Below are positions 1-45,162 of a stretch of 51,789 nt of DNA, in pieces; the stretch's first letter is position 1; the number at the start of each line of letters is the position of its first letter. The notes under the pieces are model-generated. The model was not told the origin of the DNA. It searched no databases and worked only from the letters and a program-made list of their open reading frames with translations. Source of the DNA: a virus (taxonomy: Duplodnaviria; Caudoviricetes); IMG/VR virus record IMGVR_UViG_3300037155_000029, positions 1-51,789 of that record, one strand, 5' to 3'. Both the position numbers and the translations under genes were made by a program.

Positions 1-127
1 TTTCATTAGCTTTTGCTTATTATAAGGTAACCACTTGACGGATTGCCCGTCATATCAAAATGAATTGTATCTAAAAGACCGTCAATAAATGTGAATAATG
101 GCATCTGTTGAAGTTGGTAACTATTAT
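1..127. repeat. Terminal direct repeat (circular assembly overlap), copy 1
   Basis: Identical to 51663-51789. The stop of ORF 6..677 overlaps the start of the fibre gene at 51668 (TAATG on minus), so gene order is continuous across the junction. Confidence 0.95.
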
Positions 128-677
128 TTGCGTCCAAAACAATTATACACCGAACATTTGGATCTTCGCCGTAAATCTCAGCGTAATTAATCGTTTTCGC
201 TGCATCTTCTGGATCGACCTGAGTAGTTTGGTAATTTACAATTGTGGGGTTATCAATAGAGGTGAAGGGAACTTTTTTAGCGTTCGCAGTATTTCTCCAA
301 AGCACTTCTAAATTGATCGTTTCAATATAGCTTCTGGCTGATCTGTCAAGAATCTCATAGCGAATAGGTGGCATCCATTGTGATTTACCGTCACCAATTG
401 ACCGAAAAACTATTCCTGCGAATCCTGTTGTCGGTGGTATTCCGGTTTCAAAATCGTCATGTACGGTTAGGTCGCTTCCACTTACTCCGGTAATTGAATA
501 TATTCCACCCCAATTAGCAACAAAGTAATCATTTACCACCTTAATCCCCGCCCCTGGTTCTGCAATATTCAAAGGATGAGTAGTGATGGTATAATCCCAA
601 GCAGATACTTGTTTCACGTTTCCGGCCAATGTTGACCATGCAACGATAGGAAGTATATTTTTGGGTGTTGTTATCAT
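6..677 (-). CDS. Hypothetical tail/baseplate-region protein
   Basis: 223-aa ORF translationally coupled to both neighbours in the tail module; no recognised motif. Confidence 0.55.
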   Translation of the reverse strand: MITTPKNILPIVAWSTLAGNVKQVSAWDYTITTHPLNIAEPGAGIKVVNDYFVANWGGIYSITGVSGSDLTVHDDFETGIPPTTGFAGIVFRSIGDGKSQWMPPIRYEILDRSARSYIETINLEVLWRNTANAKKVPFTSIDNPTIVNYQTTQVDPEDAAKTINYAEIYGEDPNVRCIIVLDANNSYQLQQMPLFTFIDGLLDTIHFDMTGNPSSGYLIISKS

Positions 678-1696
678 TATGAAGGTTGAGTAATGATGGA
701 CGATCCGAAAAACAGGTGTACTAATACTTGTGTTTCTATTGTGGCGAAACCTTTAATGGTGGCTACATTGCCATAACGATCATTTTTAAAGTTCATATAG
801 GCTAAGCCTCCGGTCAAATTAGTTGAATCAAAAGTCGCTCCATCGACTGATTCAACAGACATCAAGCACATTTTACGGTGTAGATTGTGAGTAACAACTA
901 AATCTTCCGGTACAACTCCGGCAGCAACGGTAAATCCGGTAGGTACAACAATGGTACCCGCACAACGTCCGGCCACAGTTGAGGCAGATGGTAGGGTAAT
1001 TTGGTATTCGACTTGAATAGCGGCCGCCACCTTTGCTTTTTCTGCATCCGAATAATCGTTTTTTGAAAGCCCGTAACCCGTTACTTTGTCAACCTTTCCG
1101 GATAAATCCTGATCACCTGTATTGTCTCCTGAAAGCGTAGTAATTGAAAGTTTTGATTTTATTGAAGCTAATGTTTCGTCGCCCGTATTTGATCCGCTTA
1201 AGATTGTAATTGACAGCTTGCTTTTGATTGAACTTGTAGTTTCATCGCCCGTGTTCGATCCCGAAAGAGTCATTATTCCTAACTTAGTTTTAATTGTTGC
1301 AGTTGTTTCGTCGCCTGTATTTATGTTAGATAATTCCAATATGACTTTAAACGCTGCAAAAGTAATATATTGAGGTGTGGCCGAAGATCCTGAAGTATTG
1401 CCAATGATTGAAAGTGCATCCATTGAAGCCATTTTTACCAAAGTAACCTGACCATTGGAAAGCGATAATGTACCTATTTTTTCAACCAATGTCTCTAAAA
1501 GAGGGTCGGAATCAACAAACACCCATTCCACACCCGCAATATTAACCGTCAACCATGCGGCACGTGACGCAAAAGGCAGCAAGGATAAAACCTGGGCGGC
1601 ATCCACATAGGGAACGCCGTTATTAAATTTTCGTTCGTCAATATCTGGCAACTGCGAACCGCAATAAAAACCTATTACAATCGGTGTACCTTCCAT
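677..1696 (-). CDS. Tail fibre-like protein with 21-aa repeats
   Basis: About four LSGSNTGDETxxxIKSKLSIT-type repeats plus 'LSGKVDKVTGYGLSKNDYSDAEKAK', a segment typical of phage fibres. Confidence 0.6.
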   Translation of the reverse strand: MEGTPIVIGFYCGSQLPDIDERKFNNGVPYVDAAQVLSLLPFASRAAWLTVNIAGVEWVFVDSDPLLETLVEKIGTLSLSNGQVTLVKMASMDALSIIGNTSGSSATPQYITFAAFKVILELSNINTGDETTATIKTKLGIMTLSGSNTGDETTSSIKSKLSITILSGSNTGDETLASIKSKLSITTLSGDNTGDQDLSGKVDKVTGYGLSKNDYSDAEKAKVAAAIQVEYQITLPSASTVAGRCAGTIVVPTGFTVAAGVVPEDLVVTHNLHRKMCLMSVESVDGATFDSTNLTGGLAYMNFKNDRYGNVATIKGFATIETQVLVHLFFGSSIITQPS

Positions 1697-2639: not shown

Positions 2640-3174
2640 GTTTAATTACCGGATTTTCAATGTCAGATATTTTTGTCTCTTTTATTCTGTCTACCATCCA
2701 TTTTGCAGCTATCATTTTTAATGCGGCCCCGCCATCTGAGGGAATTACAGCCCATGTCGAAAAGGCTGTTTTTAATGAGTTTAAATCCTTTTCAACAGCA
2801 TTCAATCTATCGACTGTCTCTTTGATTTTCAACAGTCCCCCAAATGAACCATCGTTTAGTTTTATCAGCGTTTTAGCATCTAAAGTAATATTTTCAATTT
2901 CTGAATATTGACAAACGAACGGTTCAATATTTTGTGAAAAGATTACTTTTACGGTTGATCCAATTACAGGCTCAAACAAAATACCATCATCTACAACAGC
3001 CATTAATTTAACGGTCGGCAGTTCATATTCAGTGTGACCATCAATAGCAGTGCAGGAGCAGATTCTTTTCGATACATCTACGCTACTAACGGTAACGTTG
3101 ATATAACAAACCTGATCGACCTTATGCAAGCCTAACAATCTTTCAAGTGCCTCTCTTATTCCCCTGTCACTCAT
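2629..3174 (-). CDS. Baseplate spike (gpV-like)
   Basis: OB-fold-like N-terminus ('PVIGSTVKV'), 'LNDGSFGGLLKI' and C-terminal 'IENPVIKHG'; follows the hub gene. Confidence 0.6.
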   Translation of the reverse strand: MSDRGIREALERLLGLHKVDQVCYINVTVSSVDVSKRICSCTAIDGHTEYELPTVKLMAVVDDGILFEPVIGSTVKVIFSQNIEPFVCQYSEIENITLDAKTLIKLNDGSFGGLLKIKETVDRLNAVEKDLNSLKTAFSTWAVIPSDGGAALKMIAAKWMVDRIKETKISDIENPVIKHGK

Positions 3175-4376
3175 ACTAATATACGATAATGCAATTCGAT
3201 AACTTGTCTTAATCCGCCCATTCCACCAGAATATTCTACACCCTTAACCTTATATAGTCCATTTCGTTCCGGTAAAACGGGGTCAATTAACTGTACGTTG
3301 TCACCCATTTTTACAAATGGTATTCCAAAAGTAGTAAATTTTCCTTTAAATCCTGTATAATAAAATTTTCTTAAAAACTCAGTTCCAACGGATATTAATT
3401 CTTTGATTGACTTTGCACCCGGGAAAGGCTGGGTGATTCGTTCGCCCCCTGTATTTGGTGGATAGTCTTCACCTTTTTTCTTAATAAAAACAGTCGGTTC
3501 AGCTGCTCCATTTTGAAATGTAATCAAAACTTCCATTCTGTTGCATTTTGTTTTCGGGTTGCCATCTTTTGTCATTTCGCCCGTTTCTTCTTCGTTTTTA
3601 TTTGAAGCAACGCAACTTAAAACCAAATCATCTTTTCTTCGATAATCAAGTTCATCGCTTATGATTGTATGCTGAAATGTAAAGGTATGCTTCTGTGCTT
3701 CACTTTCGATATAAATATTCATTCCGCAACGCAATTCATCGCCTCGAAAAGTCGATTCAAAATAGTATTGTTTTTGAAGTCGTGCTAATACTTCGGCGAC
3801 CGTTTCATTTCCTACCATAAAAACGCCAAATGTCGTCTCGGTTAAAGAATTAACCGTGTATTTTGTCCCTTTTAATAGAAATTTTAAAATACTTTCCAGC
3901 GTATCGGTCGCCTTAAATGTGTGAATCGGTGCAGGGATCTGTTTTAATTTCCACATATTGTCTTCAATCAAAAATTCAATAGGTTTTTTGGATGTAACCT
4001 TTGAAATAAAGCCAGTAAACAAATGTGAATTTTTCTTGCTATTGTAAGTGCCTTCAAACCTTTCTTTGTTGTCTCTGAAAAATTTATAACCGTAATCAAT
4101 CGTAACAGCGTCCCCTCGCATTAATAACGGCGAAGACGTGAAACCTCCAATGTTTACATTTGTACCCCAAAGCGGCTGCCGTTTGCCGTTTGTATTGACA
4201 TAATATAAATTTTTAGGAATGATTATTTTGCCGTCATTCGTCATATCTCTCCATGTATCTGCGCATTCAAATTCATTCACAAAATCAAAATAAAGCGTTT
4301 TGTTTCTCGGTAACGCCCCTGGTGTTTTGAGTTGCGTCAACTGCTGAATTGTTATATTTGTAAATACTCTATACAT
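3171..4376 (-). CDS. Baseplate hub / late control D-like protein
   Basis: 'LFTGFISKV...IEDNMWKLKQ' and 'GKFTTFGIP...GDNVQLID...GLYKVKGV' pattern. Confidence 0.7.
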   Translation of the reverse strand: MYRVFTNITIQQLTQLKTPGALPRNKTLYFDFVNEFECADTWRDMTNDGKIIIPKNLYYVNTNGKRQPLWGTNVNIGGFTSSPLLMRGDAVTIDYGYKFFRDNKERFEGTYNSKKNSHLFTGFISKVTSKKPIEFLIEDNMWKLKQIPAPIHTFKATDTLESILKFLLKGTKYTVNSLTETTFGVFMVGNETVAEVLARLQKQYYFESTFRGDELRCGMNIYIESEAQKHTFTFQHTIISDELDYRRKDDLVLSCVASNKNEEETGEMTKDGNPKTKCNRMEVLITFQNGAAEPTVFIKKKGEDYPPNTGGERITQPFPGAKSIKELISVGTEFLRKFYYTGFKGKFTTFGIPFVKMGDNVQLIDPVLPERNGLYKVKGVEYSGGMGGLRQVIELHYRILV

Positions 4377-4380
4377 TTGA

Positions 4381-4551
4381 CTGTAAATTCGTTATATGTA
4401 GAATTGTGTTGGTGAAATATTTCATTCGATTGTCAGACACATATTGTTTGTTGATAATCAGCAACTTACAAATTAAGCTCTTAATATTATGTAGTTTCTT
4501 TACTCTCGTTTCTTAACTCGTTGATAATCAGCGTATTTAGTTTTTGTATTT
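4381..4551. repeat. Intergenic element copy 1 (homologous to 18576-18746)
   Basis: Colinear at a constant offset of 14195; two TTGATAATCA boxes 70 nt apart and AATTCGTTATATGTAG are shared. Confidence 0.8.
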
Positions 4552-4586
4552 TACTCAAAATATTGAACATCAGACAATATACATTG

Positions 4587-7470: not shown

Positions 7471-7880
7471 CGTGTAATTGCTCCAATGATTAATGGTATT
7501 TTAACAGTCAATTTAGTGTCACCCTCTTTTGCGGTAAAGGGATCTTCCAAAAATTCAACTGCTCTCAGGGTGTCTTTTGTCGCATCTGCAACAGAATTAC
7601 CGTAAAGAACCGGAATATCAAACCATCCAATTGCCAAAGGGTCGCGCGACGGAGCGGCCTTAATTACTCGCTTCCATTCATCGAGATAAATTTCAATTGA
7701 ACCGTCGTATTCCTTTTTGCCGTAACCACGCGAAACGGGTTCTGTACCCGCTCCGTAGTTGTTTGTCTTAGCCTGTTTGCGTTTGTATTCAATATTCACA
7801 ATCCCGGCAACAGGAACGCCAAAGAGAACAAAAGATATTGAACTCCAAGAATATGCGACTCCGTTAATAAGTGGTGTCAT
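7467..7880 (-). CDS. Tail tube protein
   Basis: 'LINGVAYSWSSI...YGAGTEPVSRGYG' motif; follows the sheath gene. Confidence 0.8.
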   Translation of the reverse strand: MTPLINGVAYSWSSISFVLFGVPVAGIVNIEYKRKQAKTNNYGAGTEPVSRGYGKKEYDGSIEIYLDEWKRVIKAAPSRDPLAIGWFDIPVLYGNSVADATKDTLRAVEFLEDPFTAKEGDTKLTVKIPLIIGAITR

Positions 7881-7886
7881 AATATT

Positions 7887-9413
7887 TTATTTAAAAGAGA
7901 TTGGTACTTGAATATTTCTTGCAATGCCGTTGGCATTTAACTGAACATTAATAACCAATAAACTTGTGGTTACAACGTTCTGAGTAGGATCAATGTAAAC
8001 ATCTGACTCGACAACCTCGCCTAAATCCTGATCGCGTGCCATTTGATACAGCGGTTGCAAGGCTGTATTTTCAAAGAAAGCAACCGAAGTGTCTGCAAGT
8101 GTTCCGTCTGCATTTTTCAGAATCTTACTTTTTAGGTAGGGAACTAAAGCGGCATAAATCCCGCGAATAGCTTTATCAATTACCCTGTTGTCATTGATAT
8201 AGGCATAGTCAGAACTTAAAGCAACAGCACAATGATTGTCATTAAAGTAAGTCCCGGCATAACCCCCGTACTTTTGTCCGAAGATATGCCTATTTGCATC
8301 AATCGCATCGAGAGCGGCATCCGACAAAGCGGCGGCACTCAAAAGTTGACCATTTGCAAAGGCGGGAACATCATTCTCTATTCCGTTTGAAATATTGAAT
8401 TTTGCAGGTTGCCCGAAATCTTCAGAAACGGCACTCAAAGAAAGCATACCCAATGCAATGCCCAAATGAGTAACCGATTTACCTGTCACATAGAAAAGAT
8501 AAGCACCTAATCCGGCACCATCCTGACCAATGATCGAACTGACTTTATTTGCAGTCAATACTGTGAGGTCTGCAATGGTTGTAATGTCGGCGGTAGCCTG
8601 TAAATTGGCTGCATAAAGAGCCGAAAGAGGTTTATGCCTTGCATCATTGTAAATTTTGATTATTCCGTCAATTGCGGTCAAATCTCCACTTGCATAAGCT
8701 GCTGAATCTTTGAAAATACCAACCTGGCGAATCTTTCCGGCGGCGGCTGTTTGCAAAAGTGTAATTTCTGCAAATGTGTAAGGCGAAGGAACTGGAAAGA
8801 ATCCAACCCAAAGAATTGAGTTTGGATTACCTCTGAAAAATTCAGCAATATGATAATGCCAAACAGCCTGTTTTGAAGCAACACCCGCTGAAAATTGGGT
8901 AATTGTGTTTGTCATCGTTGCACCGGCTGACAATGTAACTACAATTGGAGTGCCTGAATTTAGGAAAACACCTAATCCGGGACGTGCGGTAATTGCGACA
9001 GATCCAGAAGTATCAACAGAGGTGTAACCATGCGTTTTGGTTCCTGCGTTGATTATTGCGGCGATTGCATCACCCACCTTTGTAACGGTTGAATCGCCTG
9101 AAATCTTTGTATAAGTTCCCAGATCGACAATAACGCCAAGCGGCTCAGTAACCTTAATGTTGATTGTGTCGCCATTGGTGCCAATACCCGTAATCACAAT
9201 AGCGCCCGCCGCCTTTGTTTCGTCTGCATAATCTGCCAGTATTCCGGCACTTTCAGCGTCAACAATAGAGAAAAACTGCTTTGTGTTATTCGTAGTTGTA
9301 AAACCCGAAGGCAAAGAGCCAGTATATAAAATAAGCCCCGAAATGAAATCTTCGCCGGCTGCTACCCGATTACTCGCTCCTCGTCCTTTGATAAATGTGA
9401 TATTACTTCTCAT
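7887..9413 (-). CDS. Contractile tail sheath protein (DUF2586-like)
   Basis: 508 aa; 'GTYFND...SDYAYINDNRVIDKAIR' and C-terminal 'GIARNIQVPISF'. Confidence 0.8.
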   Translation of the reverse strand: MRSNITFIKGRGASNRVAAGEDFISGLILYTGSLPSGFTTTNNTKQFFSIVDAESAGILADYADETKAAGAIVITGIGTNGDTINIKVTEPLGVIVDLGTYTKISGDSTVTKVGDAIAAIINAGTKTHGYTSVDTSGSVAITARPGLGVFLNSGTPIVVTLSAGATMTNTITQFSAGVASKQAVWHYHIAEFFRGNPNSILWVGFFPVPSPYTFAEITLLQTAAAGKIRQVGIFKDSAAYASGDLTAIDGIIKIYNDARHKPLSALYAANLQATADITTIADLTVLTANKVSSIIGQDGAGLGAYLFYVTGKSVTHLGIALGMLSLSAVSEDFGQPAKFNISNGIENDVPAFANGQLLSAAALSDAALDAIDANRHIFGQKYGGYAGTYFNDNHCAVALSSDYAYINDNRVIDKAIRGIYAALVPYLKSKILKNADGTLADTSVAFFENTALQPLYQMARDQDLGEVVESDVYIDPTQNVVTTSLLVINVQLNANGIARNIQVPISFK

Positions 9414-9417
9414 TTAT

Positions 9418-9636
9418 TTATTTTTTTGGTCGTCCTTTCGAACGTGGTTTATCTTCTTTGAGACTTTCGTCCCCATTATCAACAATCAGAAGTTCATCGC
9501 CTCGGTTTATTTCTTCACCTCCGTTATGTGGATGCAGGTGAAAATTGCCGTCTTTTGTTACCCAAATGGTTTCAACATTGGGTAACGCTGCGAAAACATC
9601 TTTAGGATCGTGATACATCTTAATTGATCCTTGCAA
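9418..9636 (-). CDS. Small hypothetical virion-module protein
   Basis: Coupled ORF ending in KGRPKK; the true start may be the second Met. Confidence 0.5.
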   Translation of the reverse strand: MQGSIKMYHDPKDVFAALPNVETIWVTKDGNFHLHPHNGGEEINRGDELLIVDNGDESLKEDKPRSKGRPKK

Positions 9637-27677: not shown

Positions 27678-28415
27678 ATGCGAAAAATTGAAATTAAAAA
27701 CAGATGGGACGATTCAGTAATTAAGACCGTTGAAGTCGAGGACGGTGCAAGCCTGAGCGGTGCAAACCTGATCGATGCAGACCTGAGCGGTGCAAACCTG
27801 AGCGGTGCAGACCTGAGCGGTGCAAACCTGAGCGATGCAGACCTGAGCGATGCAGACCTGAGACGTGCAAACCTGAGCGGTGCAAACCTGAGCGGTGCAG
27901 ACCTGAGCGGTGCAAACCTGAGCGATGCAGACCTGAGCGATGCAGACCTGAGCGGTGCAAACCTGAGCGATGCAGACCTGAGCGATGCAGACCTGAGACG
28001 TGCAAGCCTGAGCGGTGCAGACCTGAGACGTGCAAGCCTGAGCGGTGCAGACCTGAGCGATTTACGTCTATCTGAAACCACCGGATTTTTATTGCCCTTA
28101 TGTCCGTCTGAGGGGTCGTTTATTGGATGGAAGAAAGCAGGCGGATATATTGTTAAAATTCAAATTTGCAAGGATGCAAAACGCTCAAATGCAACATCTT
28201 TAAAATGTAGGTGTTCATCTGCAAAGGTTATTTCAATTGAAAACATTGATAGTTCAAAATCTGGACTCAAAAATATTTGCAGTGATCACGACTGTAATTT
28301 TATTTACACTATTGGAAAGGTTGTTTCGGTTGAAAATTTTGATGAACAGCGTTTTAATGAATGTTCATCAGGTATTCACTTTTTTATTAGTCGCGAAATG
28401 GCAGTACAATATTAA
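27678..28415 (+). CDS. Pentapeptide repeat protein with Cys-rich C-terminal domain (DUF5758-like)
   Basis: About 21 A(D/N/S)L(S/R)x repeats, then '[12 protein letters not shown]...KCRCS...ECSSGIHFF'. Confidence 0.9.
27744..28060 (+). repeat. 15-bp tandem repeats encoding pentapeptides
   Basis: GCA(A/G)ACCTGAGCG(G/A)T units and variants. Confidence 0.9.
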
Positions 28416-28600: not shown

Positions 28601-28733
28601 CGATAACGCTTGAGGCTAACCGCATGTAGCGGAATTAGAAGCACTTAACAATCAAAATACAACGAATATGGCAAAGAAAGAAAAACTTACGAAACCCACT
28701 GCCACCGCTATTGCGGTTGAGCCTGTGTTAGGG
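28601..28733 (-). other. attC-like site A
   Basis: TAAC 28604 ... GTTA 28727; stem AGGCTAACCGCATGTAGCGG/CCGCTATTGCGGTTGAGCCT with bulges; ATG 28668 lies in the loop. Confidence 0.75.
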
Positions 28734-29159
28734 TGCGTTATTGTTTCAAAATCTCTTTTTTTAGAGACCATGGAAGCAATTGAAAAACAGTATAAGCACG
28801 ACCAGAAATGTAATACTGCTTTTAAAACATTATTACCAAATGATTACACGAGCGGATATGATAATCACTGGGTAAATAATGAGCTTATTAAATATCTGCA
28901 AAAGGCAATGAATGATGAACATGCCGAAAGTTGGATTGAGTATTTTTTATGGGAGCTTGATTTTGGTAAAAAATACAGACCTGGAAGTGTAATTAGAAAA
29001 GATAAAACACATATTGATTTATCTAATGCTGGTAAACTTTACGATTATTTAATTGAGGAAAATAAATCAAAATGCTTACATCCATTAAGTGAATTAAGGT
29101 TTTGGAATGATTCAACAGTTGAATGTTTGATATGCGGTCATCGGGGGCTGACTTTTTAA
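28668..29159 (+). CDS. Cassette-borne hypothetical protein
   Basis: 163 aa; ends GTTAGGGTGCGTTA/TAATGCACCCTAAC. Confidence 0.7.
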   Translation: MAKKEKLTKPTATAIAVEPVLGCVIVSKSLFLETMEAIEKQYKHDQKCNTAFKTLLPNDYTSGYDNHWVNNELIKYLQKAMNDEHAESWIEYFLWELDFGKKYRPGSVIRKDKTHIDLSNAGKLYDYLIEENKSKCLHPLSELRFWNDSTVECLICGHRGLTF

Positions 29160-29163
29160 TGCA

Positions 29164-29257
29164 CCCTAACGAATTGGGCTATGTGCAGTTGCCCGTGTAC
29201 AAATTTTAAATATTGCACTAAACTTATCGGGCAATTGCATATTAGCCCGTGTTATAA
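29164..29257 (-). other. attC-like site B
   Basis: Stem GGGCTATGTGCAGTTGCCCG/CGGGCAATTGCATATTAGCCC between TAAC 29167 and GTTA 29251. Confidence 0.75.
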
Positions 29258-29268
29258 ACAGTAATTTT

Positions 29269-29514
29269 ATGGAAAAGATTTGTAACCAGCATTTTATAAA
29301 AGATACGCATAGGGATAAAAAATATACATCAACCCTTAAATGCTCGTGCTGTGGAGAAGAAAGTCATTTGACTCAGCCAGCTCCATTTTTGAAAGATTTT
29401 GTAAGATGGTTAAATGATTTTACAAAACTTCACAAAAATAAAGGATGTAATAAACATAAAATAGAGAACCAGGAATGGGCTGCAAAAGAAGTCTCTTTCG
29501 GAGTGGCAATCTGA
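29269..29514 (+). CDS. Cassette-borne hypothetical protein (possible Zn-binding)
   Basis: 81 aa with CSCC and HxxxGC; ends GTTATAAACAGTAAT/ATTATTGTTTATAAC. Confidence 0.65.
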   Translation: MEKICNQHFIKDTHRDKKYTSTLKCSCCGEESHLTQPAPFLKDFVRWLNDFTKLHKNKGCNKHKIENQEWAAKEVSFGVAI

Positions 29515-29521
29515 TTATTGT

Positions 29522-29654
29522 TTATAACGTTTGAGGCTAACCGCATGTAGCGGAAATTGAAACACTTAACAATCAAAATACAACAAATATGACAACGAAG
29601 ACGAAAGCAACAAGACCCACTAAACCCGCTATTGCGGTTGAGCCTGTGTTAGCA
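29522..29654 (-). other. attC-like site C (near copy of A)
   Basis: Same stem arms as A; ATG 29589 lies in the loop. Confidence 0.75.
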
Positions 29655-29903
29655 CCTGTTTTTAAATTTGGTGATTATTGCACAATTGAACAACATAGGT
29701 ACGGGTCAAATAATGAGCATTACCATCATAAGGTAATTGGAACGCTAAAATCAACAGCGTGGGTTGAAGTTCCTGTAATGTATAATCCACAAGAAAATAA
29801 CCATGATGAACTTGTTGATGTGGTTGCTTGCGTTTGCGAGGGGGTTGATGAACGGCATATATTTAGGTACAGAGCTATTGATTGCAAGCCGCTGTTTAAA
29901 TAG
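29589..29903 (+). CDS. Cassette-borne hypothetical protein
   Basis: 104 aa; ends GTTAGCACCTGTTT/AAATAGGTGCTAAC. Confidence 0.65.
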   Translation: MTTKTKATRPTKPAIAVEPVLAPVFKFGDYCTIEQHRYGSNNEHYHHKVIGTLKSTAWVEVPVMYNPQENNHDELVDVVACVCEGVDERHIFRYRAIDCKPLFK

Positions 29904-29904
29904 G

Positions 29905-30050
29905 TGCTAACGTTCGGCGGCTATCTGCCTGTTAAGGCGGGAGACGTGAGGCACGAACGGATCGATAGCCTTAATGGCAGATAATCGTTGTTCTGTGCAG
30001 TTACTTCGCGACGCGGAAATGTTTATAGGAGAGGCCGCCGAGCGTTCAGG
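29905..30050 (-). other. attC-like site D (two alternative GTT ends)
   Basis: Inner stem TATCTGCCTGTTAAGGC/GCCTTAATGGCAGATA; outer stem AACGTTCGGCGGC/GCCGCCGAGCGTT; GTT at 29990 and 30044. Confidence 0.65.
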
Positions 30051-30085
30051 TTCAATTAAAGTTTTGGGAATTTAAAATTTGAAAT

Positions 30086-30265
30086 ATGAGAACAGTTATT
30101 AGAATCACCTTTAAGGATGGACATCAGTTAATCGCTGATATTGACAAATTTGAAATGCTAACGGATAGGGAGGTTGTTACTTTATTTTCGGCCATTTATC
30201 CCGGTTGGTCCTCATTTCAAATTTTAAATGAAGAAACTTTAGGAGCGACCAAAGGAGCGACGTAA
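30086..30265 (+). CDS. Cassette-borne 59-aa protein (not in ORF track)
   Basis: MRTVIRITFKDGHQ...GATKGAT*; ends GTTCAGGTTCAATTA/TAATTGAACCTGAAC. Confidence 0.6.
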   Translation: MRTVIRITFKDGHQLIADIDKFEMLTDREVVTLFSAIYPGWSSFQILNEETLGATKGAT

Positions 30266-30310
30266 TTGAACCTGAACTCATAAATACAACCAATAAAATA
30301 ACGGCTTTTT

Positions 30311-30496
30311 ATGAAACAATATACTGAAACATACAGGATTAAGCTCTCAATAATTCAGCGGGAGAAACTGGATAAGTTGAAAACGGAATTTAAGATTTTA
30401 CCCGCGAGGTTTATTCGATTGGCAATTGAAGAGAAGTTAAAAAATGATCTTCCAAAATTAAGGGTCAAGGCGAAAAAACAATCCTGTCCGTTCTAA
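30311..30496 (+). CDS. Ribbon-helix-helix-like regulator
   Basis: 'YRIKLSIIQREKLDKLK...PARFIRLAIEEKL'. Confidence 0.6.
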   Translation: MKQYTETYRIKLSIIQREKLDKLKTEFKILPARFIRLAIEEKLKNDLPKLRVKAKKQSCPF

Positions 30497-31796: not shown

Positions 31797-31855
31797 TGAG
31801 GGGTGACAGAGTGGTAATGTTTAAACAATCGGAGGTTCGAATCCTTCCCCCTTTT
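31797..31855 (+). ncRNA. tRNA-like element lacking an anticodon arm
   Basis: Acceptor GAGGGG/CCCCTT, D arm ACA-GAGTGGTAA-TGT, T arm GGAGG-TTCGAAT-CCTTC, with only 10 nt between D and T arms. Confidence 0.65.
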
Positions 31856-31869
31856 CAATGTTCGTTGAA

Positions 31870-32198
31870 GTTATTAGTAAAATTCGTTTGGACGCGGGTT
31901 CGACTCCCGCCAGCTCCACGCTAATCGCCAATTAGATTAGCCAGATATGCCTCTCATTAAACATATACTGTGAGATATCGGTTAAAAATGATCGAATAAA
32001 GCCATCTGAAATACGACAGGTAATTAACTCGGAGGTATTTATATGATAAAAATATCTGGCTTTATATTTGGGGCTGACCGGTATTGACAGCGAAGAAATA
32101 AGGTAACGGAGAGCATTAAAGCTGTAAAAGGCAAATCTTTAGAAATGAAAATGGCTGCGTAAGACGTGGACTTTTCAGCCGGGGCTTCGGCTCCGGTT
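31870..32198 (+). ncRNA. ssrA: Circularly permuted two-piece tmRNA
   Basis: The 3' module GACGCGGGTTCGACTCCCGCCAGCTCCA (31891-31918) precedes the 5' module GGGGCTGACCGGTATTGAC (from 32070). Acceptor stem has G3-U70. Tag ORF 32130-32162 encodes GKSLEMKMAA*. Confidence 0.88.
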
Positions 32199-39182: not shown

Positions 39183-39305
39183 TCACCCAATCACAACCGG
39201 CAAAGACCGGCTTAAATATCTCACTCCTCAAATGGAGGTGTTGGAGTCGAAGGGTCAAATCAACGACCGGAAGCAACTTGAAAAATATAAAAAATACAAA
39301 AAGCC

Positions 39306-39758
39306 ATGAAAAAGGAAAGCATTAAATTCAAATTTGAAACAAAAAAGGGTCAGACAGTTTATTTTGTTGAGGTAAATATGAGAGACGCAGCATCAATGTT
39401 AAATCGCTCAACATTTAACAAACAGGGTATTTTCATAACTGAATTAAAAATAGTTCATCAAACACCGCGTAAAATCGCACTGTCCGATGAATATATTACT
39501 CTGTTTGATCGCCAAAAAACCGACCAAGAAAAGGAGAGCTACAATCATTATATCGAGGATGTCAATGTTTCAATCGTTACGAAGGAATTATATTTTCCAA
39601 ATGGCATTTTTTCAAGCTGTTACACTTTGAATGATCCAAAAAAGTGTATCGCAAAAATTAAACAAAAAATTTGCGATAAAATCAATAAAGACTATGGTTT
39701 TTTACGATTTGTGGACATTGAGGAAACGATCAGAAATCTTGAAGTAATCAACCTGTAA
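39306..39758 (+). CDS. Hypothetical protein
   Basis: 150-aa ORF. Confidence 0.6.
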   Translation: MKKESIKFKFETKKGQTVYFVEVNMRDAASMLNRSTFNKQGIFITELKIVHQTPRKIALSDEYITLFDRQKTDQEKESYNHYIEDVNVSIVTKELYFPNGIFSSCYTLNDPKKCIAKIKQKICDKINKDYGFLRFVDIEETIRNLEVINL

Positions 39759-39934
39759 TCAGAAATGAAGCCTACAATATTTGATCTTCAGAAACTTTCC
39801 GGCAACCTTCAAACCTGGGGCGGAATGATTCGAGTTGTAATTAACGGCAAACATTCTCAAATGAGGCGAATTAGGGCTTTTCGGAGAGGGTTATGCGAGG
39901 GAGCGAATGAATTTACAGGACAAATACCGACAAG

Positions 39935-40378
39935 ATGAAAAAAATTACCGCTTTTGCAACAAAGGAAAAGGATAAGCCCCTTGAGATTCACAATAGGTCG
40001 GCTTTTAATTCCGCCTTATCGCAAATGGTCGGCAAACTTAAAATCACAGTTGAAAAGTATTACGCAAAATCAACACCAAAACAATTCGGTTGGCTGTACT
40101 CTTCAATTTATCCGCTTTCAATGATTGCGCTTAATGATGCCGGATATGAATTTGAAACGATTGACGAGGTTGATGATTTCTGGAAAACTCTCTATGCAAA
40201 TCGGCCAGTTTTAAATCGGGAAACTGGCGAAATTGTAAATGTACCGCTTAGAAAATCTAAATTTGTAACCGTTGATCAAATGGCTTATTGTAATGCGATA
40301 CGGCAATATTGCGCTGAATATTTAGGATGTGAAATCCCAGAGCCAGATATTGACTGGAAAAAATACTGCGAAAAATGA
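39935..40378 (+). CDS. NinB-like protein
   Basis: 'STPKQFGWLYS...QMAYCNAIRQYCAEYLGCEIPEP'. Confidence 0.55.
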   Translation: MKKITAFATKEKDKPLEIHNRSAFNSALSQMVGKLKITVEKYYAKSTPKQFGWLYSSIYPLSMIALNDAGYEFETIDEVDDFWKTLYANRPVLNRETGEIVNVPLRKSKFVTVDQMAYCNAIRQYCAEYLGCEIPEPDIDWKKYCEK

Positions 40379-40758
40379 AAATAAATAGAAAAAATATTTG
40401 GCTGATGTTTGATAAAAGGTGTGCATATTGCGGGTGTTTGTTATTGAACGAATCCGGAAAGTATATGCAGATAGATCATGTTACCCCTATTTATCGAGAT
40501 TGGAGTAATTTCGGTATTCCAATTAAGCCAGAAAACGACCTTGTTAAATATCCGGCATGTCCCAAATGCAATAATTACAAGTCGACTATGAGTGTTGAGA
40601 CATTTCGCAAAGAGCTACAAAAGATACCAGAACGATTATTTGATCAAAATGCAACGTATCGCAACGCCTTAAGGTTTAGAATGATCGAAGTTAAATTGTG
40701 GGACGGTATATTTTGGTTTGAAAAATATCAAAAAGATGTTACACAACATGAAATGTAA
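40375..40758 (+). CDS. HNH endonuclease
   Basis: 'RCAYCG...IDHVTP...PACPKCNNYK'. Confidence 0.88.
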   Translation: MKINRKNIWLMFDKRCAYCGCLLLNESGKYMQIDHVTPIYRDWSNFGIPIKPENDLVKYPACPKCNNYKSTMSVETFRKELQKIPERLFDQNATYRNALRFRMIEVKLWDGIFWFEKYQKDVTQHEM

Positions 40759-40800
40759 ATCGCATTATTAGGTTTTGTACTTTGCAGAAAAATTGAAGTT

Positions 40801-40965
40801 ATGGAAAAGAAACAACTGATTGAAATCTTAAACAATCCCAGAACGGTGAAAATCGAACTTCTGGAACTTGCCTGTATGGAGGCGGCACAAATGATCGAAG
40901 AACTTTCTTTGAGCGACTTCGAAAAAGCCGAGCAATTAACGGAAAATTTTCACGGGTACGAATGA
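40801..40965 (+). CDS. 54-aa hypothetical protein (not in ORF track)
   Basis: MEKKQLIEIL...FHGYE*, after operator 40737 and TACTTTG at 40778. Confidence 0.5.
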   Translation: MEKKQLIEILNNPRTVKIELLELACMEAAQMIEELSLSDFEKAEQLTENFHGYE

Positions 40966-42728: not shown

Positions 42729-43217
42729 ATGGAATACTTAATAGATAATGAAAAGCACAAGGTAATTTACATCGAATATCAAGATGGATTACCTCATAGC
42801 GTTGTTACTATATTTTTTGTAGATACGGCTAAAGAACCTTATTGGAGACCTGAATATTGGGATTTTTTCGCAAACGAAGGTGATAAAAATGATTTAAGAG
42901 CTTATAGTTCTGGTTCTGGTGGTGATGATAAAAAGATTCAAGCTCCTCAATATATTGATGGTTATTTAGGCGCAAGGTATTGGATGGCTGAATATATTGA
43001 ATTTGATGGAGAGCCAAAAAACATAAAAAGATTGAAAAGCCCTAAATTATTAAGGTGTTATGAAAATTCGAGAAACCCATTTAAAGTTGCCGAAATAACA
43101 CATAGTTGTGAATATTGCGATAGATGTGGACATTACTCTACTGAATTTTGTGATGAACACAAATATGATGATGATGAAGGAAATGTCAGATATAAAGATG
43201 ATGATTCTTACGAATAG
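42729..43217 (+). CDS. Hypothetical protein in probable truncated cassette
   Basis: 162 aa with C-terminal CxxC; flanked by GTTAGTTG (42658) and CAACTAAC (43287). Confidence 0.65.
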   Translation: MEYLIDNEKHKVIYIEYQDGLPHSVVTIFFVDTAKEPYWRPEYWDFFANEGDKNDLRAYSSGSGGDDKKIQAPQYIDGYLGARYWMAEYIEFDGEPKNIKRLKSPKLLRCYENSRNPFKVAEITHSCEYCDRCGHYSTEFCDEHKYDDDEGNVRYKDDDSYE

Positions 43218-43818: not shown

Positions 43819-43964
43819 GTTTAACGCTCGGCGGCTAAACCTTCGTTTAACCCGCCTTTGAGGTACGAAAAGGAGAGAGGGTTAAATGAGGTTTAATCGT
43901 TGTTAGGGTCACGTTCGTTCGCGACACTATAAGGCCTTTAGGTACAGGCCGCCGAGCGTTAGGG
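43819..43964 (-). other. attC-like site F (two alternative GTT ends; related to D)
   Basis: Outer stem AACGCTCGGCGGC/GCCGCCGAGCGTT; inner stem TAAACCTTCGTTTAACCC/GGGTTAAATGAGGTTTA; GTTAGGG at 43902 and 43958. Confidence 0.65.
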
Positions 43965-43999
43965 ATCAATTTGAATACCGAGAATTTAAAATTTTAGTC

Positions 44000-44251
44000 A
44001 TGAAAGAAATTATTAAAGATTTAAATCAGATCAAAGTAAATCTGCAATTCGCAGTTGATTTTAGAGACGGGCTCGTTGTTATATCGGAAATTAAAAAAGT
44101 GGACGCCCTGATACTAAGGCTCTCTAAAATTTTAAATGAAGGGATTCAAGTGAACGATAAATCAGTTTGCCCTAAATGCGGAAGTAGTAATTATATAAAT
44201 ACCTACTTAATTGAAGAGTGCAAAGATTGTTGTTGGATCAGGGCAAAATGA
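44000..44251 (+). CDS. Cassette-borne zinc-ribbon protein
   Basis: CPKC...CKDC; ends GTTAGGGATCAATT/AATTGATCCCTAAC. Confidence 0.65.
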   Translation: MKEIIKDLNQIKVNLQFAVDFRDGLVVISEIKKVDALILRLSKILNEGIQVNDKSVCPKCGSSNYINTYLIEECKDCCWIRAK

Positions 44252-44272
44252 TTTGGAGCGAACGCAATTGAT

Positions 44273-44402
44273 CCCTAACGTTGGGTATATGGCAAGTTGG
44301 GGATTAAAAAGTGCTACCCTGTCGAGCCGCACGAAAGAAAATTAACAGCACAAATATTCAAATTGGAACGACACCCCCAATTTGCTATATACATTGTTAG
44401 GG
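44273..44402 (-). other. attC-like site G
   Basis: Stem GTATATGGCAAGTTGGGG/CCCCAATTTGCTATATAC between TAAC 44276 and GTTA 44396. Confidence 0.75.
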
Positions 44403-44422
44403 TGCGTTTATTCTTAATCAAA

Positions 44423-44614
44423 ATGGAACATAAAATTAAAGAGTTAGAAAACTATTTAAACGATTTAGACAACCTAATAGACACAGGGTGGTTTCCAGAA
44501 GAAAGTGTAAAAGATTGTACATTTTATCACAAGGATTTAACGCTTCGTGATTTTGTATCAAAAGGTCGTGAATATATCCGACAGTATTTAATCTCTGAAA
44601 AGGGTGTTTCTTAA
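44423..44614 (+). CDS. Cassette-borne hypothetical protein
   Basis: MEHKIKE...; ends GTTAGGGTGCGTTTA/TAAATGCACCCTAAC. Confidence 0.6.
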   Translation: MEHKIKELENYLNDLDNLIDTGWFPEESVKDCTFYHKDLTLRDFVSKGREYIRQYLISEKGVS

Positions 44615-44619
44615 ATGCA

Positions 44620-44749
44620 CCCTAACGGTCGCAGGTTTGACCAGTAAAGGAATTAAAATAACTAAATTATCAAATTATGAAAAACTTTATTAAGCGCGCT
44701 ATTGATCGCATACGCAGGAAACCTTTATTGGTTAAACCTGTTGTTAGCC
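44620..44749 (-). other. attC-like site H
   Basis: Stem CAGGTTTGACCAGTAAAGG/CCTTTATTGGTTAAACCTG; ATG 44677 lies in the loop. Confidence 0.75.
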
Positions 44750-45084
44750 ACCGTTTTATTAAACACCAAGACAAAACAAATTGGGGCGTATCAATTCACA
44801 TGCTTGAAGAAAGTGGGAGGGCTTATGCCAGAACATATTGGTATGATGATGATGAAACAGTGGTATTTTTAGAAGGATTGCATGTTGATAAAGAAGCGAG
44901 GGGGAATGGCATTGCTTCTAAATTGTTAGACTTACACATTCAGATAGCGAAAGATAATCATGCCAGTTCTCAACTAAAGGTAAAAGAAGGAACGTGGGTG
45001 TATGAATGGTATAAACGCAGGGGATATAAGGACTATGTAAAATGCAAAGAAAGCAATGACATTTGGCTGTATATGCTGCCTTAA
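44677..45084 (+). CDS. Cassette-borne GNAT acetyltransferase
   Basis: 'LHVDKEARGNGIASKLL...WYKRRGY'; ends GTTAGCCACCGTTT/AAATGGTGGCTAAC. Confidence 0.85.
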   Translation: MKNFIKRAIDRIRRKPLLVKPVVSHRFIKHQDKTNWGVSIHMLEESGRAYARTYWYDDDETVVFLEGLHVDKEARGNGIASKLLDLHIQIAKDNHASSQLKVKEGTWVYEWYKRRGYKDYVKCKESNDIWLYMLP

Positions 45085-45162
45085 ATGGTGGCTAACTCAT
45101 TGCTATACGTAATGTATATATACACCCAATTAGGCTGTATATACGCAATTAATATAATGTTT

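What the first reader, a model, noticed from the sequence alone, without database searches (positions are those of the whole stretch)
29905..30277. Double-ended attC variant with mutually exclusive folds
Seen: sites D (29905-30050) and F (43819-43964) each have two GTT ends 54-56 nt apart, and both ends are complementary to the cassette's far end (F: GTTAGGGTCACGTTCGTTCGC and GTTAGGGATCAATT versus GCGAACGCAATTGATCCCTAAC). An outer stem AACG(T/C)TCGGCGGC/GCCGCCGAGCGTT competes with the attC-like fold, and both loops carry TGAGG(C/T)ACGAA. Inference: a conserved conformational switch, or a small element parasitising attC sites.
Basis: partly seen in the sequence, partly recalled or inferred. Interest (0 to 1): 0.7.

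Follow-up and report, generated by a model that had tools for sequence, protein, structure and literature searches.

The report
Two-ended phage gene-cassette junction site
Sites D and F are folded DNA junction elements that mark the ends of small swappable gene cassettes in a bacteriophage, and they led to an integron-like cassette system with its own type of recombinase that appears not to have been described.

Summary
D and F are two copies of a ~132-nt element. It has an outer stem, a strongly covarying inner hairpin with a conserved GAGGNACGA loop, and two GTT boxes 54 and 56 nt apart, both complementary to the far end of the cassette.

They are not canonical integron attC sites. The window is a complete phage. 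Seven small genes are bracketed by inverted arms (5' GTT-N7-GTT, 3' AAT-N7-AAC) with a fixed G.T pair, and are separated by hairpin sites.

In 80 viral loci that encode a Xer/IntI-like tyrosine recombinase, 136 such brackets lie upstream of the recombinase gene and 1 lies downstream. Two near-identical genomes carry the same units in a different order, cut exactly at AAC|. Unit D is 100% identical in a phage that is otherwise 88.6% identical.

By family geometry, the internal GTT box of D/F is the canonical cassette arm. The outer stem plus terminal GTT box is an addition seen in 0 of 47 generic sites.

Best reading: these are mobile cassettes of an integron-like phage system. The window holds orphan arrays without a recombinase. 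The two-ended design gives two near-isoenergetic folds whose role is inferred, not shown.

The parts
29912..30277 (+). Unit D: site D plus its cassette. Bounded by AAC| on both sides (29909-29911 and 30275-30277).
   Evidence: 0 mismatches over window 29907-30278 against G002, with flanks unrelated on the left and diverging on the right. X3 and X4 contigs diverge at 30275 and an X5 contig ends at 30277.
29909..29921 (+). D outer stem (P1), 5' strand: AAC plus a 10-nt spacer.
   Evidence: Pairs with 30034-30046.
29922..29983 (+). D inner hairpin P2, with apical loop GAGGCACGA (29948-29956).
   Evidence: 16 of 21 pairs compensatory across D, F and L134. The same loop motif occurs in short sites of Polaribacter phage P12002L.
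29990..30012 (+). D internal GTT box. This is the canonical 5' arm (GTT-N7-GTT), preceded by the 6-nt spacer ATCGTT.
   Evidence: 10/6 spacer geometry, the commonest among generic sites. Pairs with the far end at -19.5 kcal/mol.
30034..30058 (+). D P1 3' strand (30034-30046) running into the terminal GTT arm (30044-30058).
   Evidence: Perfect 15-nt inverted repeat with 30263-30277. 0/0 spacer geometry, seen in 0 of 47 generic sites.
30086..30265 (+). Cargo ORF of unit D, 59 aa, no family match.
30242..30277 (+). D far end: two GGAGCGAC motifs, then the 3' arm TAATTGAACCTGAAC (30263-30277).
   Evidence: Read directly from the sequence. Conserved in F and L134.
43826..44279 (+). Unit F: site F plus its cassette.
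   Evidence: Model R1 scores 161 bits. Arms 43958-43971 / 44266-44279 form a perfect 14-nt inverted repeat.
43902..43925 (+). F internal GTT box.
43948..43971 (+). F P1 3' strand plus terminal arm. This 24-nt run is the exact reverse complement of the 3' arm (44266-44279) followed by the site's first 10 nt (43826-43835).
   Evidence: Read directly from the sequence.
44000..44251 (+). Cargo ORF of unit F, 83 aa, C-terminal CxxC pairs, no family match.
28608..29911 (+). Three generic units upstream of D: site A 28608-26 with cassette 28727-29170; site B 29171-29250 with cassette 29251-29528; site C 29529-29647 with cassette 29648-29911.
   Evidence: Arms carry the G.T signature. Sites A and C are a 129-nt repeat, 84% identical, that holds the start codon and about 21 codons.
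44280..45096 (+). Two generic units downstream of F: site G 44280-44395 with cassette 44396-44626; site H 44627-44742 with cassette 44743-45096 (GNAT acetyltransferase).
   Evidence: Site G is conserved with covariation in L001 and L134. GNAT assignment.

Best explanation
D and F are the folded junction sites of two mobile single-gene cassettes. The cassettes belong to a phage-borne, integron-like system.

The unit of that system runs from just after one AAC to the next AAC. It consists of:
- a hairpin site;
- a 5' arm (T|GTT-N7-GTT);
- the cargo gene;
- a 3' arm (AAT-N7-AAC|G) that is the cassette-specific inverted repeat of the 5' arm, apart from one fixed G.T pair.

Folding is on the gene-sense strand. 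Units are cut and rejoined exactly at AAC|. The enzyme is most probably a small Xer/IntI-like tyrosine recombinase that related phages encode about 51 nt beyond the last cassette. The window phage has two arrays (28.6-30.3 kb and 43.8-45.1 kb) but no recombinase, so its cassettes are orphan arrays that would need the enzyme in trans.

Within this grammar the internal GTT box of D/F is the ordinary 5' arm. D/F carry an extra 54-56-nt module. Its 3' part pairs with the site's 10-nt 5' spacer to form the outer stem. It also supplies a second, perfectly matched arm.

The element can therefore fold in two ways:
- the canonical site, with the far end paired to the internal box;
- a continuous perfect helix across the AAC|G joint, formed by the outer stem plus the terminal box.

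I infer that the second form masks or locks the recombination site, or stabilises the joint of an excised circle. That last step is inference.
For: SHOWN

1. Structure. 20 of 43 pairs are compensatory and 96.9% of cells are paired. The + strand folds better than the - strand for sites D, F, G and H, as DNA and as RNA.

2. Bracket grammar in the window. There are 8 arm pairs of 14 nt with at most 1 mismatch, against a mean of 0.54 in 100 shuffles. Five carry the single G.T at position 11, against 0.01 in shuffles. The same signature occurs in G001, G002 and Polaribacter phage P12002L.

3. Link to a recombinase.
- G001, which holds the L134 D/F homologue, encodes a 274-aa tyrosine recombinase 51 nt after its last cassette.
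- In 80 viral loci with homologues, there are 137 signature brackets on the recombinase strand and 2 in the other orientation.
- 136 lie in the 357,121 nt upstream of the gene and 1 in the 594,623 nt from its start onward.
- 50 of 60 loci with more than 1 kb of upstream sequence have at least one bracket.
- In 21 of 52 loci the last bracket ends 49-53 nt before the ATG.
- Background: 4 signature brackets in 3.9 Mb of unrelated loci, both orientations.

4. Mobility at AAC|.
- L524 and L525, whose recombinase regions are 99.9% identical, hold the same 100%-identical units in a different order, each bounded by AAC|.
- Unit D has 0 of 372 mismatches against G002, while the structural genes are 88.6% identical.
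- Contigs of other runs break at 30275-30277.

5. D/F geometry. Measured to the internal GTT, D and F have 10/6 spacers, the commonest class (10 of 47 generic sites). Measured to the terminal GTT they have 0/0 spacers, found in 0 of 47. The far end pairs with either box at similar energy.

INFERRED
- That the adjacent recombinase is the enzyme.
- That the substrate is single-stranded DNA.
- The function of the added module.
Against: - The window genome has no tyrosine, serine or Y1-HUH recombinase. Neither do P12002L or the half-complete G002.
- No excised circle or joint was observed. Only contigs were available, not raw reads.
- The consistent G.T polarity on the sense strand would fit RNA folding as well. 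So would a start codon inside many sites and a stop codon inside the 3' arm.
- In P12002L some brackets abut with 3-7-nt linkers and lie inside annotated ORFs. So a hairpin site is not obligatory, and the integron analogy is loose.
- The D/F type was found only in this small group of peat phages: window twice, G001 and G002. It was absent from 1.14 Mb that included the 80 recombinase loci. Its added module rests on 3 distinct sequences.
- The core of the outer stem is invariant, so covariation does not test it.
Confidence: 0.62

Rival explanations
1. RNA-level element. The sites and bracket arms fold in the early mRNA. They act as punctuation and stability elements, for example through a double-strand-specific RNase as in rRNA precursors, or as leaders that control translation. 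D/F would be a bistable leader. On this view modules are exchanged as whole units only because arms must stay complementary.
For: - Every non-Watson-Crick pair in true arms and site stems is G.T on the sense strand.
- The RNA folds are very stable: -62 kcal/mol, z -4 to -5.
- Many sites enclose the start codon and the 3' arm contains the stop codon.
- The apical loop GAGGNACGA is conserved while the stems covary, from a peat phage to a marine Polaribacter phage.
- The two far-end pairings are near-isoenergetic.
Against: - RNA function does not explain the 136:1 placement next to a recombinase gene or the fixed ~51-nt head.
- It does not explain permuted units cut exactly at AAC| in near-identical genomes.
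- It does not explain the left junction of unit D, which joins unrelated DNA through only CTAAC.
- Brackets inside ORFs would make RNase cutting harmful.
- The two roles are not exclusive.
Confidence: 0.18
2. These are canonical integron attC sites, and the array is a CALIN captured from a bacterial integron. They would be used by a host integron integrase.
For: - AAC...GTT boxes, unpaired spacers, an L-type stem and a 76-132-nt length resemble attC.
- Qi et al. 2023 (PMC9892861; section 3.4 and passages read) predicted attC sites in virulent phages including P12002L. IntI1 recombined 5 of 6 tested sites.
- P12002L shows the same grammar as the window.
Against: - The associated recombinase family lacks the IntI insertion and scores below the integron-integrase cut-offs: 147.8 against 265 bits.
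- Arm complementarity is 14-15 nt with a fixed G.T, not 7 nt.
- The site belongs to the gene on its 3' side and often encodes that gene's start.
- The D/F outer stem has no unpaired spacer.
- I could not map the paper's attC1 and attC2 onto my sites, because the supplements are closed.
Confidence: 0.1
3. D/F are a separate small non-autonomous element that has invaded cassette junctions. An example would be an IS200/IS605-style element moved by a single-strand transposase, or an RNA-guided element.
For: - Insertion 3' of TAAC, with an element end that is also AAC.
- Strand-specific folding.
- 100% identical copies in diverged phages.
- Restricted distribution.
Against: - No Y1 transposase in the genome.
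- The boundaries, arms and 10/6 geometry are those of the generic units, so no separate mobility system is needed.
- No Rfam family matches.
Confidence: 0.05
4. The D/F three-way junction is a new ribozyme or ligand-sensing RNA.
For: Stems covary while unpaired stretches are conserved (GAGGNACGA, AATCGTTGTT, TTCGCGAC). The element is GC-rich in an AT-rich genome.
Against: - There are only 3 distinct sequences.
- No match to any Rfam family at E up to 10.
- The conserved stretches coincide with the family's recombination grammar (spacer plus arm).
Confidence: 0.03

Closest known systems
Integron gene cassettes and attC sites, including attC clusters without integrase (CALINs) reported in virulent phages (Qi et al. 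2023, PMC9892861)
   Same: - Arrays of promoter-poor single-gene units.
- Junctions with conserved AAC / GTT triplets.
- Imperfect hairpin sites of about 60-130 nt recognised by shape rather than sequence.
- One strand folds better than the other.
- Units are reshuffled precisely at the triplet.
- A simple tyrosine recombinase sits at one end of the array, next to a half-site-like head.
- Orphan arrays occur in genomes without the enzyme.
   Different: - The recombinase is Xer-like, 266-278 aa, without the IntI-specific insertion.
- The arms are 14-15-nt cassette-specific inverted repeats that flank the cargo, with a fixed G.T at pair 11.
- The hairpin site lies 5' of its gene and often contains the gene's start codon.
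- Genes are co-oriented with the recombinase, which lies downstream of the array.
- The hairpin can shrink to a 3-nt linker.
- D/F add a second arm and a spacer-less outer stem.
PeSL promoter-terminator stem-loops that mediate modular shuffling in T4-type phages (PMC2839356, PMC4122927; search listing and abstracts only)
   Same: Conserved structured intergenic motifs flank small novel ORFs in hyperplastic phage regions and mark module exchange points.
   Different: - PeSLs are direct repeats used by homologous recombination, with no dedicated recombinase.
- They have no cassette-specific inverted arms.
- They show no conserved AAC| cut point.
Single-stranded hairpin recombination sites used by Xer recombinases (CTX phage attP) and Xer-bounded pdif modules of plasmids.
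   Same: Xer-type enzymes act on folded or inverted paired sites. Discrete gene modules are bounded by inverted sites.
   Different: Those sites are sequence-conserved Xer binding sites. Here only triplets and geometry are conserved, and the arm interior covaries per cassette.

Membership tests
Integron attC site | Outer R boxes with conserved AAC...GTT that pair. | tested here: met
   AAC at 29909-11 / GTT at 30044-6 (or 29990-2). AAC at 43823-5 / GTT at 43958-60 (or 43902-4).
Integron attC site | Unpaired central spacer and extrahelical bases between the R and L boxes. | tested here: inconclusive
   Measured to the internal GTT there are 10/6-nt unpaired spacers. Measured to the terminal GTT the helix is continuous, with none. 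No consistent bulged bases were seen in D or F. A bulged G was seen in site C only.
Integron attC site | The site lies 3' of its cassette's ORF, which is co-oriented with the attC top strand. | tested here: not met
   The site moves with the gene on its 3' side and often holds that gene's start codon.
Integron attC site | Scores above threshold with the attC covariance model or HattCI. | not testable with these tools
   No attC model is held here, and Rfam has no hit. Qi et al. predicted attC in P12002L, but the coordinates are in closed supplements.
Integron (platform) | An integron integrase carrying the IntI-specific insertion in the catalytic domain. | tested here: not met
   - No PF00589 match in the window.
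- The linked recombinase in G001 scores 147.8 bits against TIGR02249 (cut-off 265), in two stretches with about 57 profile positions missing.
- Its best match is a XerA-type model at 193 bits (cut-off 220).
- Its best PDB matches are XerA.
Integron (platform) | The recombinase lies adjacent to the head of the array, with cassettes reshuffled at the conserved triplet. | tested here: met
   Met in relatives, not in the window itself. 136 brackets lie upstream and 1 downstream; the head is about 51 nt long; units are permuted in L524 versus L525.
IS200/IS605-type non-autonomous element (PATE) | A cognate Y1 HUH transposase and conserved subterminal hairpins. | tested here: not met
   No PF01797 match in the genome. 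The arm interiors are cassette-specific.
Any Rfam RNA family (ribozymes, riboswitches, bridge or omega RNAs) | A match to the family's covariance model. | tested here: not met
   No hit at gathering score in the window. In 29800-30400 only chance-level hits, with E of 0.2 or more.
PeSL of T4-type phages | A direct-repeat early promoter plus terminator stem-loop flanking the ORFs. | tested here: not met
   The flanks are inverted, cassette-specific arms. Sigma-70-like sites are not above shuffles: 63 against 61.9.

The most novel reading that the evidence does not exclude
These phages, and hundreds of viral contigs with the same Xer-like recombinase, carry a previously undescribed integron-like platform. 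In it the cargo gene sits inside the recombination hairpin. The two arms of the site flank the gene, and the hairpin site supplies the gene's start.

D/F would be a derived, bistable version of the site. A 24-25-nt run is the exact reverse complement of the 3' arm joined to the site's first 10 nt. That joined sequence is the joint of an excised single-stranded circle. The run therefore acts as a lock or as a circle-stabilising helix, and it may be a molecular trace of the circular intermediate.
Probability: 0.35. Interest if true: 0.88.

Novelty: new variant of a known kind. Interest (0 to 1): 0.8.

Why it matters
If correct, gene-cassette capture by folded recombination sites is not confined to classical integrons with IntI. 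A Xer-like enzyme family in phages of the Bacteroidota/Ignavibacteriota group would run a parallel system with a different site layout.

That would help explain three things:
- how lytic phages swap small accessory genes with base-pair precision;
- why attC-finding tools report odd attC clusters in virulent phages;
- why most integron-type recombinases in peat metagenomes have no detectable attC (PMC13323075, Methods passages read).

The bracket signature (T|GTT-N7-GTT ... AAT-N7-AAC|G) is simple enough to annotate such cassettes genome-wide. The two-ended D/F sites offer a natural test case for how site folding controls excision.

Tried and rejected
- Rfam: nothing at D or F.
- blastn of unit D against 50,697 phage records: no match.
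- Pattern scans for D/F relatives:
  - Viral contigs gave only L001 and L134.
After filtering they held only chance hits. Absence elsewhere is therefore not shown.
- The loop-motif scan found the full hairpin in 3 of 111 loci, all P12002L-like.
- Model R1 found no further D/F-type site in 1.14 Mb.
- Sequencing runs: no RNA holder listed. Only contigs could be laid, so no circle joint could be sought and no expression data exist.
- Sigma-70 promoter scan was not above shuffles: 63 against 61.9.
- The motif TANNNNTTGTTA was not significantly enriched: 9 against 4.1, with 6 of 100 shuffles as high.
- A look-alike bracket in the late region (2922-4568) and the motif at 4578 looked like chance.
- Other indels between relatives fall at gene boundaries without arms, so arms are not a general feature of this phage's mosaicism.
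- Considered and dropped: HUH transposon, serine recombinase, restriction-site periodicity, translational bypass, group I/II introns, HDV-like or hatchet ribozymes, bridge RNA. No supporting hit for any.
- Cargo proteins: no informative family except GNAT.
- Literature searches for a prior description of inverted-arm cassettes or a Xer-like phage integron found only Qi et al. 2023.
- The P12002L genome paper does not mention repeats or hairpins.

Full report
**1. Context**

The window is a complete 51,789-bp virus record with direct terminal repeats. Structural genes lie on the - strand. A block of small early genes lies on the + strand from about 27 to 45 kb.

That block includes RecT, an MBL-fold protein, NinG/Rap and two weak HNH matches. 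The tape-measure protein is closest to those of Flavobacterium phages, at 24% identity and E 6e-19. ORFs lack Shine-Dalgarno sequences, judged from the sequence itself.

A recombinase of a close relative is filed by NCBI under a Melioribacteraceae MAG. The runs that hold the phage are peat metagenomes.

The genome has no Pfam match to tyrosine recombinases, Y1 transposases or serine recombinases.

**2. The observation**

There are two copies only. Coordinates are listed under parts.

D and F align over about 146 nt. The changes are concentrated in paired positions of an inner hairpin.

With the third homologue, L134, the consensus fold has three helices:
- an outer stem, P1;
- a long hairpin, P2, with an invariant GAGGNACGA loop;
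- a weak, invariant P3.

The counts are 43 pairs, 96.9% of cells paired and 20 pairs compensatory. None of 500 shuffles reached this. Slid controls were 30-50% paired.

The P1 core never varies, so only its outer pairs support it, including an added G-C pair in L134.

The far end pairs with either GTT box at -19.5 to -27.5 kcal/mol, against -8 to -12 for shuffled far ends.

**3. Relatives and mobility of unit D**

- L001/G002 is a phage whose structural genes are 88.6% identical to the window. It carries unit D with 0 mismatches over 372 nt (29907-30278). The left flank is unrelated and shares only CTAAC.
- Contigs of two other runs diverge from the window at 30275. One contig ends at 30277.
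- One contig of X5 joins a D-like 5' half to an F-like 3' part, with a different internal box between them.
- L134/G001 carries a third, diverged copy with a different cargo gene.
- Model R1 finds this type nowhere else in 1.14 Mb of related loci.
- The large-collection scans were saturated by chance hits, so rarity beyond this group is not established.

**4. The wider grammar**

Seven + strand genes in the window are bracketed by inverted arms that start with GTT and end with AAC. There are 8 arm pairs of 14 nt with at most 1 mismatch, against a mean of 0.54 in shuffles. One of the 8, at 2922-4568, looks like chance.

Five of the pairs have a single mismatch. It is always G in the 5' arm against T in the 3' arm, at pair 11. 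The consensus is 5' GTT-N7-GTT and 3' AAT-N7-AAC, with N7 specific to each cassette.

The brackets form two arrays (28.6-30.3 kb and 43.8-45.1 kb), separated by hairpin sites of 80-132 nt. Each array begins with a site and ends with a cassette.

Sites A, C and H contain the start codon and about 21 codons of the gene that continues into the cassette.

The same grammar and the same G.T occur in G001, G002 and Polaribacter phage P12002L. In P12002L two short sites even carry the GAGGTACGA loop. Some brackets there abut with 3-7-nt linkers inside annotated ORFs.

All four sites tested fold better on the + strand.

**5. Link to a recombinase**

G001 is 100% complete by CheckV. It encodes a 274-aa tyrosine recombinase whose ATG lies 51 nt after the last cassette's AAC.

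It is a simple Xer-type enzyme:
- XerA-type model, 193 bits;
- XerD and XerC, about 153 bits;
- integron integrase model, 147.8 bits against a cut-off of 265, in two stretches with the IntI insertion missing;
- the best solved relatives are XerA.

The residues I take to be the catalytic ones are invariant in 13 homologues. That assignment is recalled, not tested.

A profile of the close homologues retrieved 313 relatives in viral contigs, of which the 80 best were kept. In these 80 loci:
- 61 loci have brackets;
- 137 brackets carry the G.T signature on the recombinase strand, against 2 in the opposite orientation;
- 136 lie in the 357 kb upstream of the gene and 1 in the 595 kb from its start onward;
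- in 21 of 52 loci the last bracket ends 49-53 nt before the ATG, and that head starts with a conserved nnnTATATGTA;
- 45 of 83 linkers are 105-126 nt;
- the T before GTT is present in 106 of 106 distinct brackets.

As a control, 490 unrelated loci (3.9 Mb, both orientations) hold 4 signature brackets.

L524 and L525 have recombinase regions that are 99.9% identical. They contain the same 100%-identical units in a different order. Each unit is cut exactly at AAC|, with the site attached to the cassette on its 3' side.

**6. What D and F are in this grammar**

In 47 distinct generic sites, the closing helix starts after a 5' spacer and ends before a 3' spacer. The commonest geometry is 10/6 nt. 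None has 0/0.

Measured to the internal GTT, D and F are 10/6. The internal box also has the GTT-N7-GTT form and, in D and L134, the G.T pair with the far end. Measured to the terminal GTT, they are 0/0.

So the internal box is the canonical arm. The 54-56 nt between the two GTTs are an addition. The 3' part of that addition pairs with the 10-nt spacer and continues into a perfect second arm.

In F this 24-nt run is the exact reverse complement of the 3' arm followed by the first 10 nt of the site. In D there is one G.T, and in L134 it is exact over 23 nt.

**7. Mechanism**

Shown:
- folding with covariation;
- strand asymmetry;
- the bracket signature;
- tight, oriented association with a Xer-like recombinase gene;
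- unit permutation and lateral transfer with ends at AAC|.

Inferred:
- the adjacent recombinase cuts after AAC on the folded + strand and exchanges units, as integron integrases do at attC;
- the window's arrays depend on an enzyme supplied in trans;
- in D/F the outer stem plus terminal arm competes with the canonical fold. It would either mask the site or form a continuous helix across the joint of an excised circle.

**8. Rivals**

RNA-level function is the main rival. It may well coexist with DNA recombination. It explains the G.U polarity, the conserved loop and the position of start and stop codons. It does not explain the recombinase linkage or the AAC| permutations.

Canonical integron attC fails on the recombinase, the arm length and the unit polarity. 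A separate parasitic element is unnecessary. A ribozyme or riboswitch has no support beyond the conserved unpaired bases.

**9. Comparison with the literature**

- Qi et al. 2023 reported 17 attC clusters without integrase in phages, including P12002L. They showed IntI1 activity on 5 of 6 tested phage sites (section 3.4 and passages read). Their site coordinates are in supplements I could not see. The match to my sites is therefore likely but unverified.
- PeSLs of T4-type phages are an analogous shuffling device without a recombinase (listing and abstracts only).
- Smyshlyaev et al. 2021 note that the IntI insertion is essential for integron function and that simple tyrosine recombinases are rare in phages (passages).
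- A 2026 permafrost study found that 97.4% of contigs with integron-type recombinases had no detectable attC. It raised novel attC types as one explanation (Methods passages).
- My searches found no description of inverted-arm cassettes tied to a Xer-like phage recombinase. That is not proof that none exists.

**10. Verdict**

- The attC reading is partly right.
- The element is best filed as a new variant within an integron-like system that is itself apparently undescribed.
- The biological role of the second GTT end remains an inference.

Noticed in passing
window 31797-32162: A tRNA-like gene (31797-31855, 33 bits) lies directly before a permuted (two-piece type) tmRNA match (31859-32162, 66.3 bits, E 1.2e-10) inside the phage early region. 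Contigs of several runs break around 31885-31919.
   Followed up: no
window 27678-28415: A pentapeptide-repeat protein with a C-terminal DUF5758 domain. Its gene shows as an 18-copy array of 15-nt periodicity (27680-28099). Relatives in other runs differ here by in-frame repeat-number changes (joints 27805/27876, 27838/28191, 27894/28374).
   Followed up: partly
window 28603-28731 and 29524-29652: Sites A and C are a 129-nt repeat, 84% identical. It supplies the leader, the start codon and a similar 21-residue N-terminus (ending ..AIAVEPVL) to two unrelated proteins. Site H gives a comparable N-terminus (..KPLLVKPVV) to the GNAT protein, and a G001 cassette has its near-twin. This may be a shared targeting or processing peptide.
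   Followed up: partly
L509 (G001) 2-1381, minus strand: Directly downstream of the Xer-like recombinase lies a gene for an SMC/AAA-like ATPase with coiled-coil, more than 460 aa. Whether it is conserved next to the recombinase in other loci was not checked.
   Followed up: no
L397 (Polaribacter phage P12002L), reverse-strand positions 7751-9448 (record about 39240-40940): Genes gp58, gp59 (HNH) and gp60 are each built from two abutting brackets joined by AAC-GGT/GCT-GTT read in frame as N-G/A-V. The bracket grammar can therefore subdivide a coding sequence, which suggests domain-level shuffling.
   Followed up: partly
run X3 and X4 contigs at window 30275: Where the window has cassette D, these relatives have a short hairpin that ends in AAC (loose end ..TAGAAGGGAAGCCCGCAGGGATTCCCTTCT). 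It looks like an empty bracket: arms with no cargo.
   Followed up: no
G001 (L392 1932-2162 and L394/L509 region 42942-43172): The same 231-nt cassette (arms GTTGGGCGCAG...) occurs twice in one genome, at two array positions.
   Followed up: no
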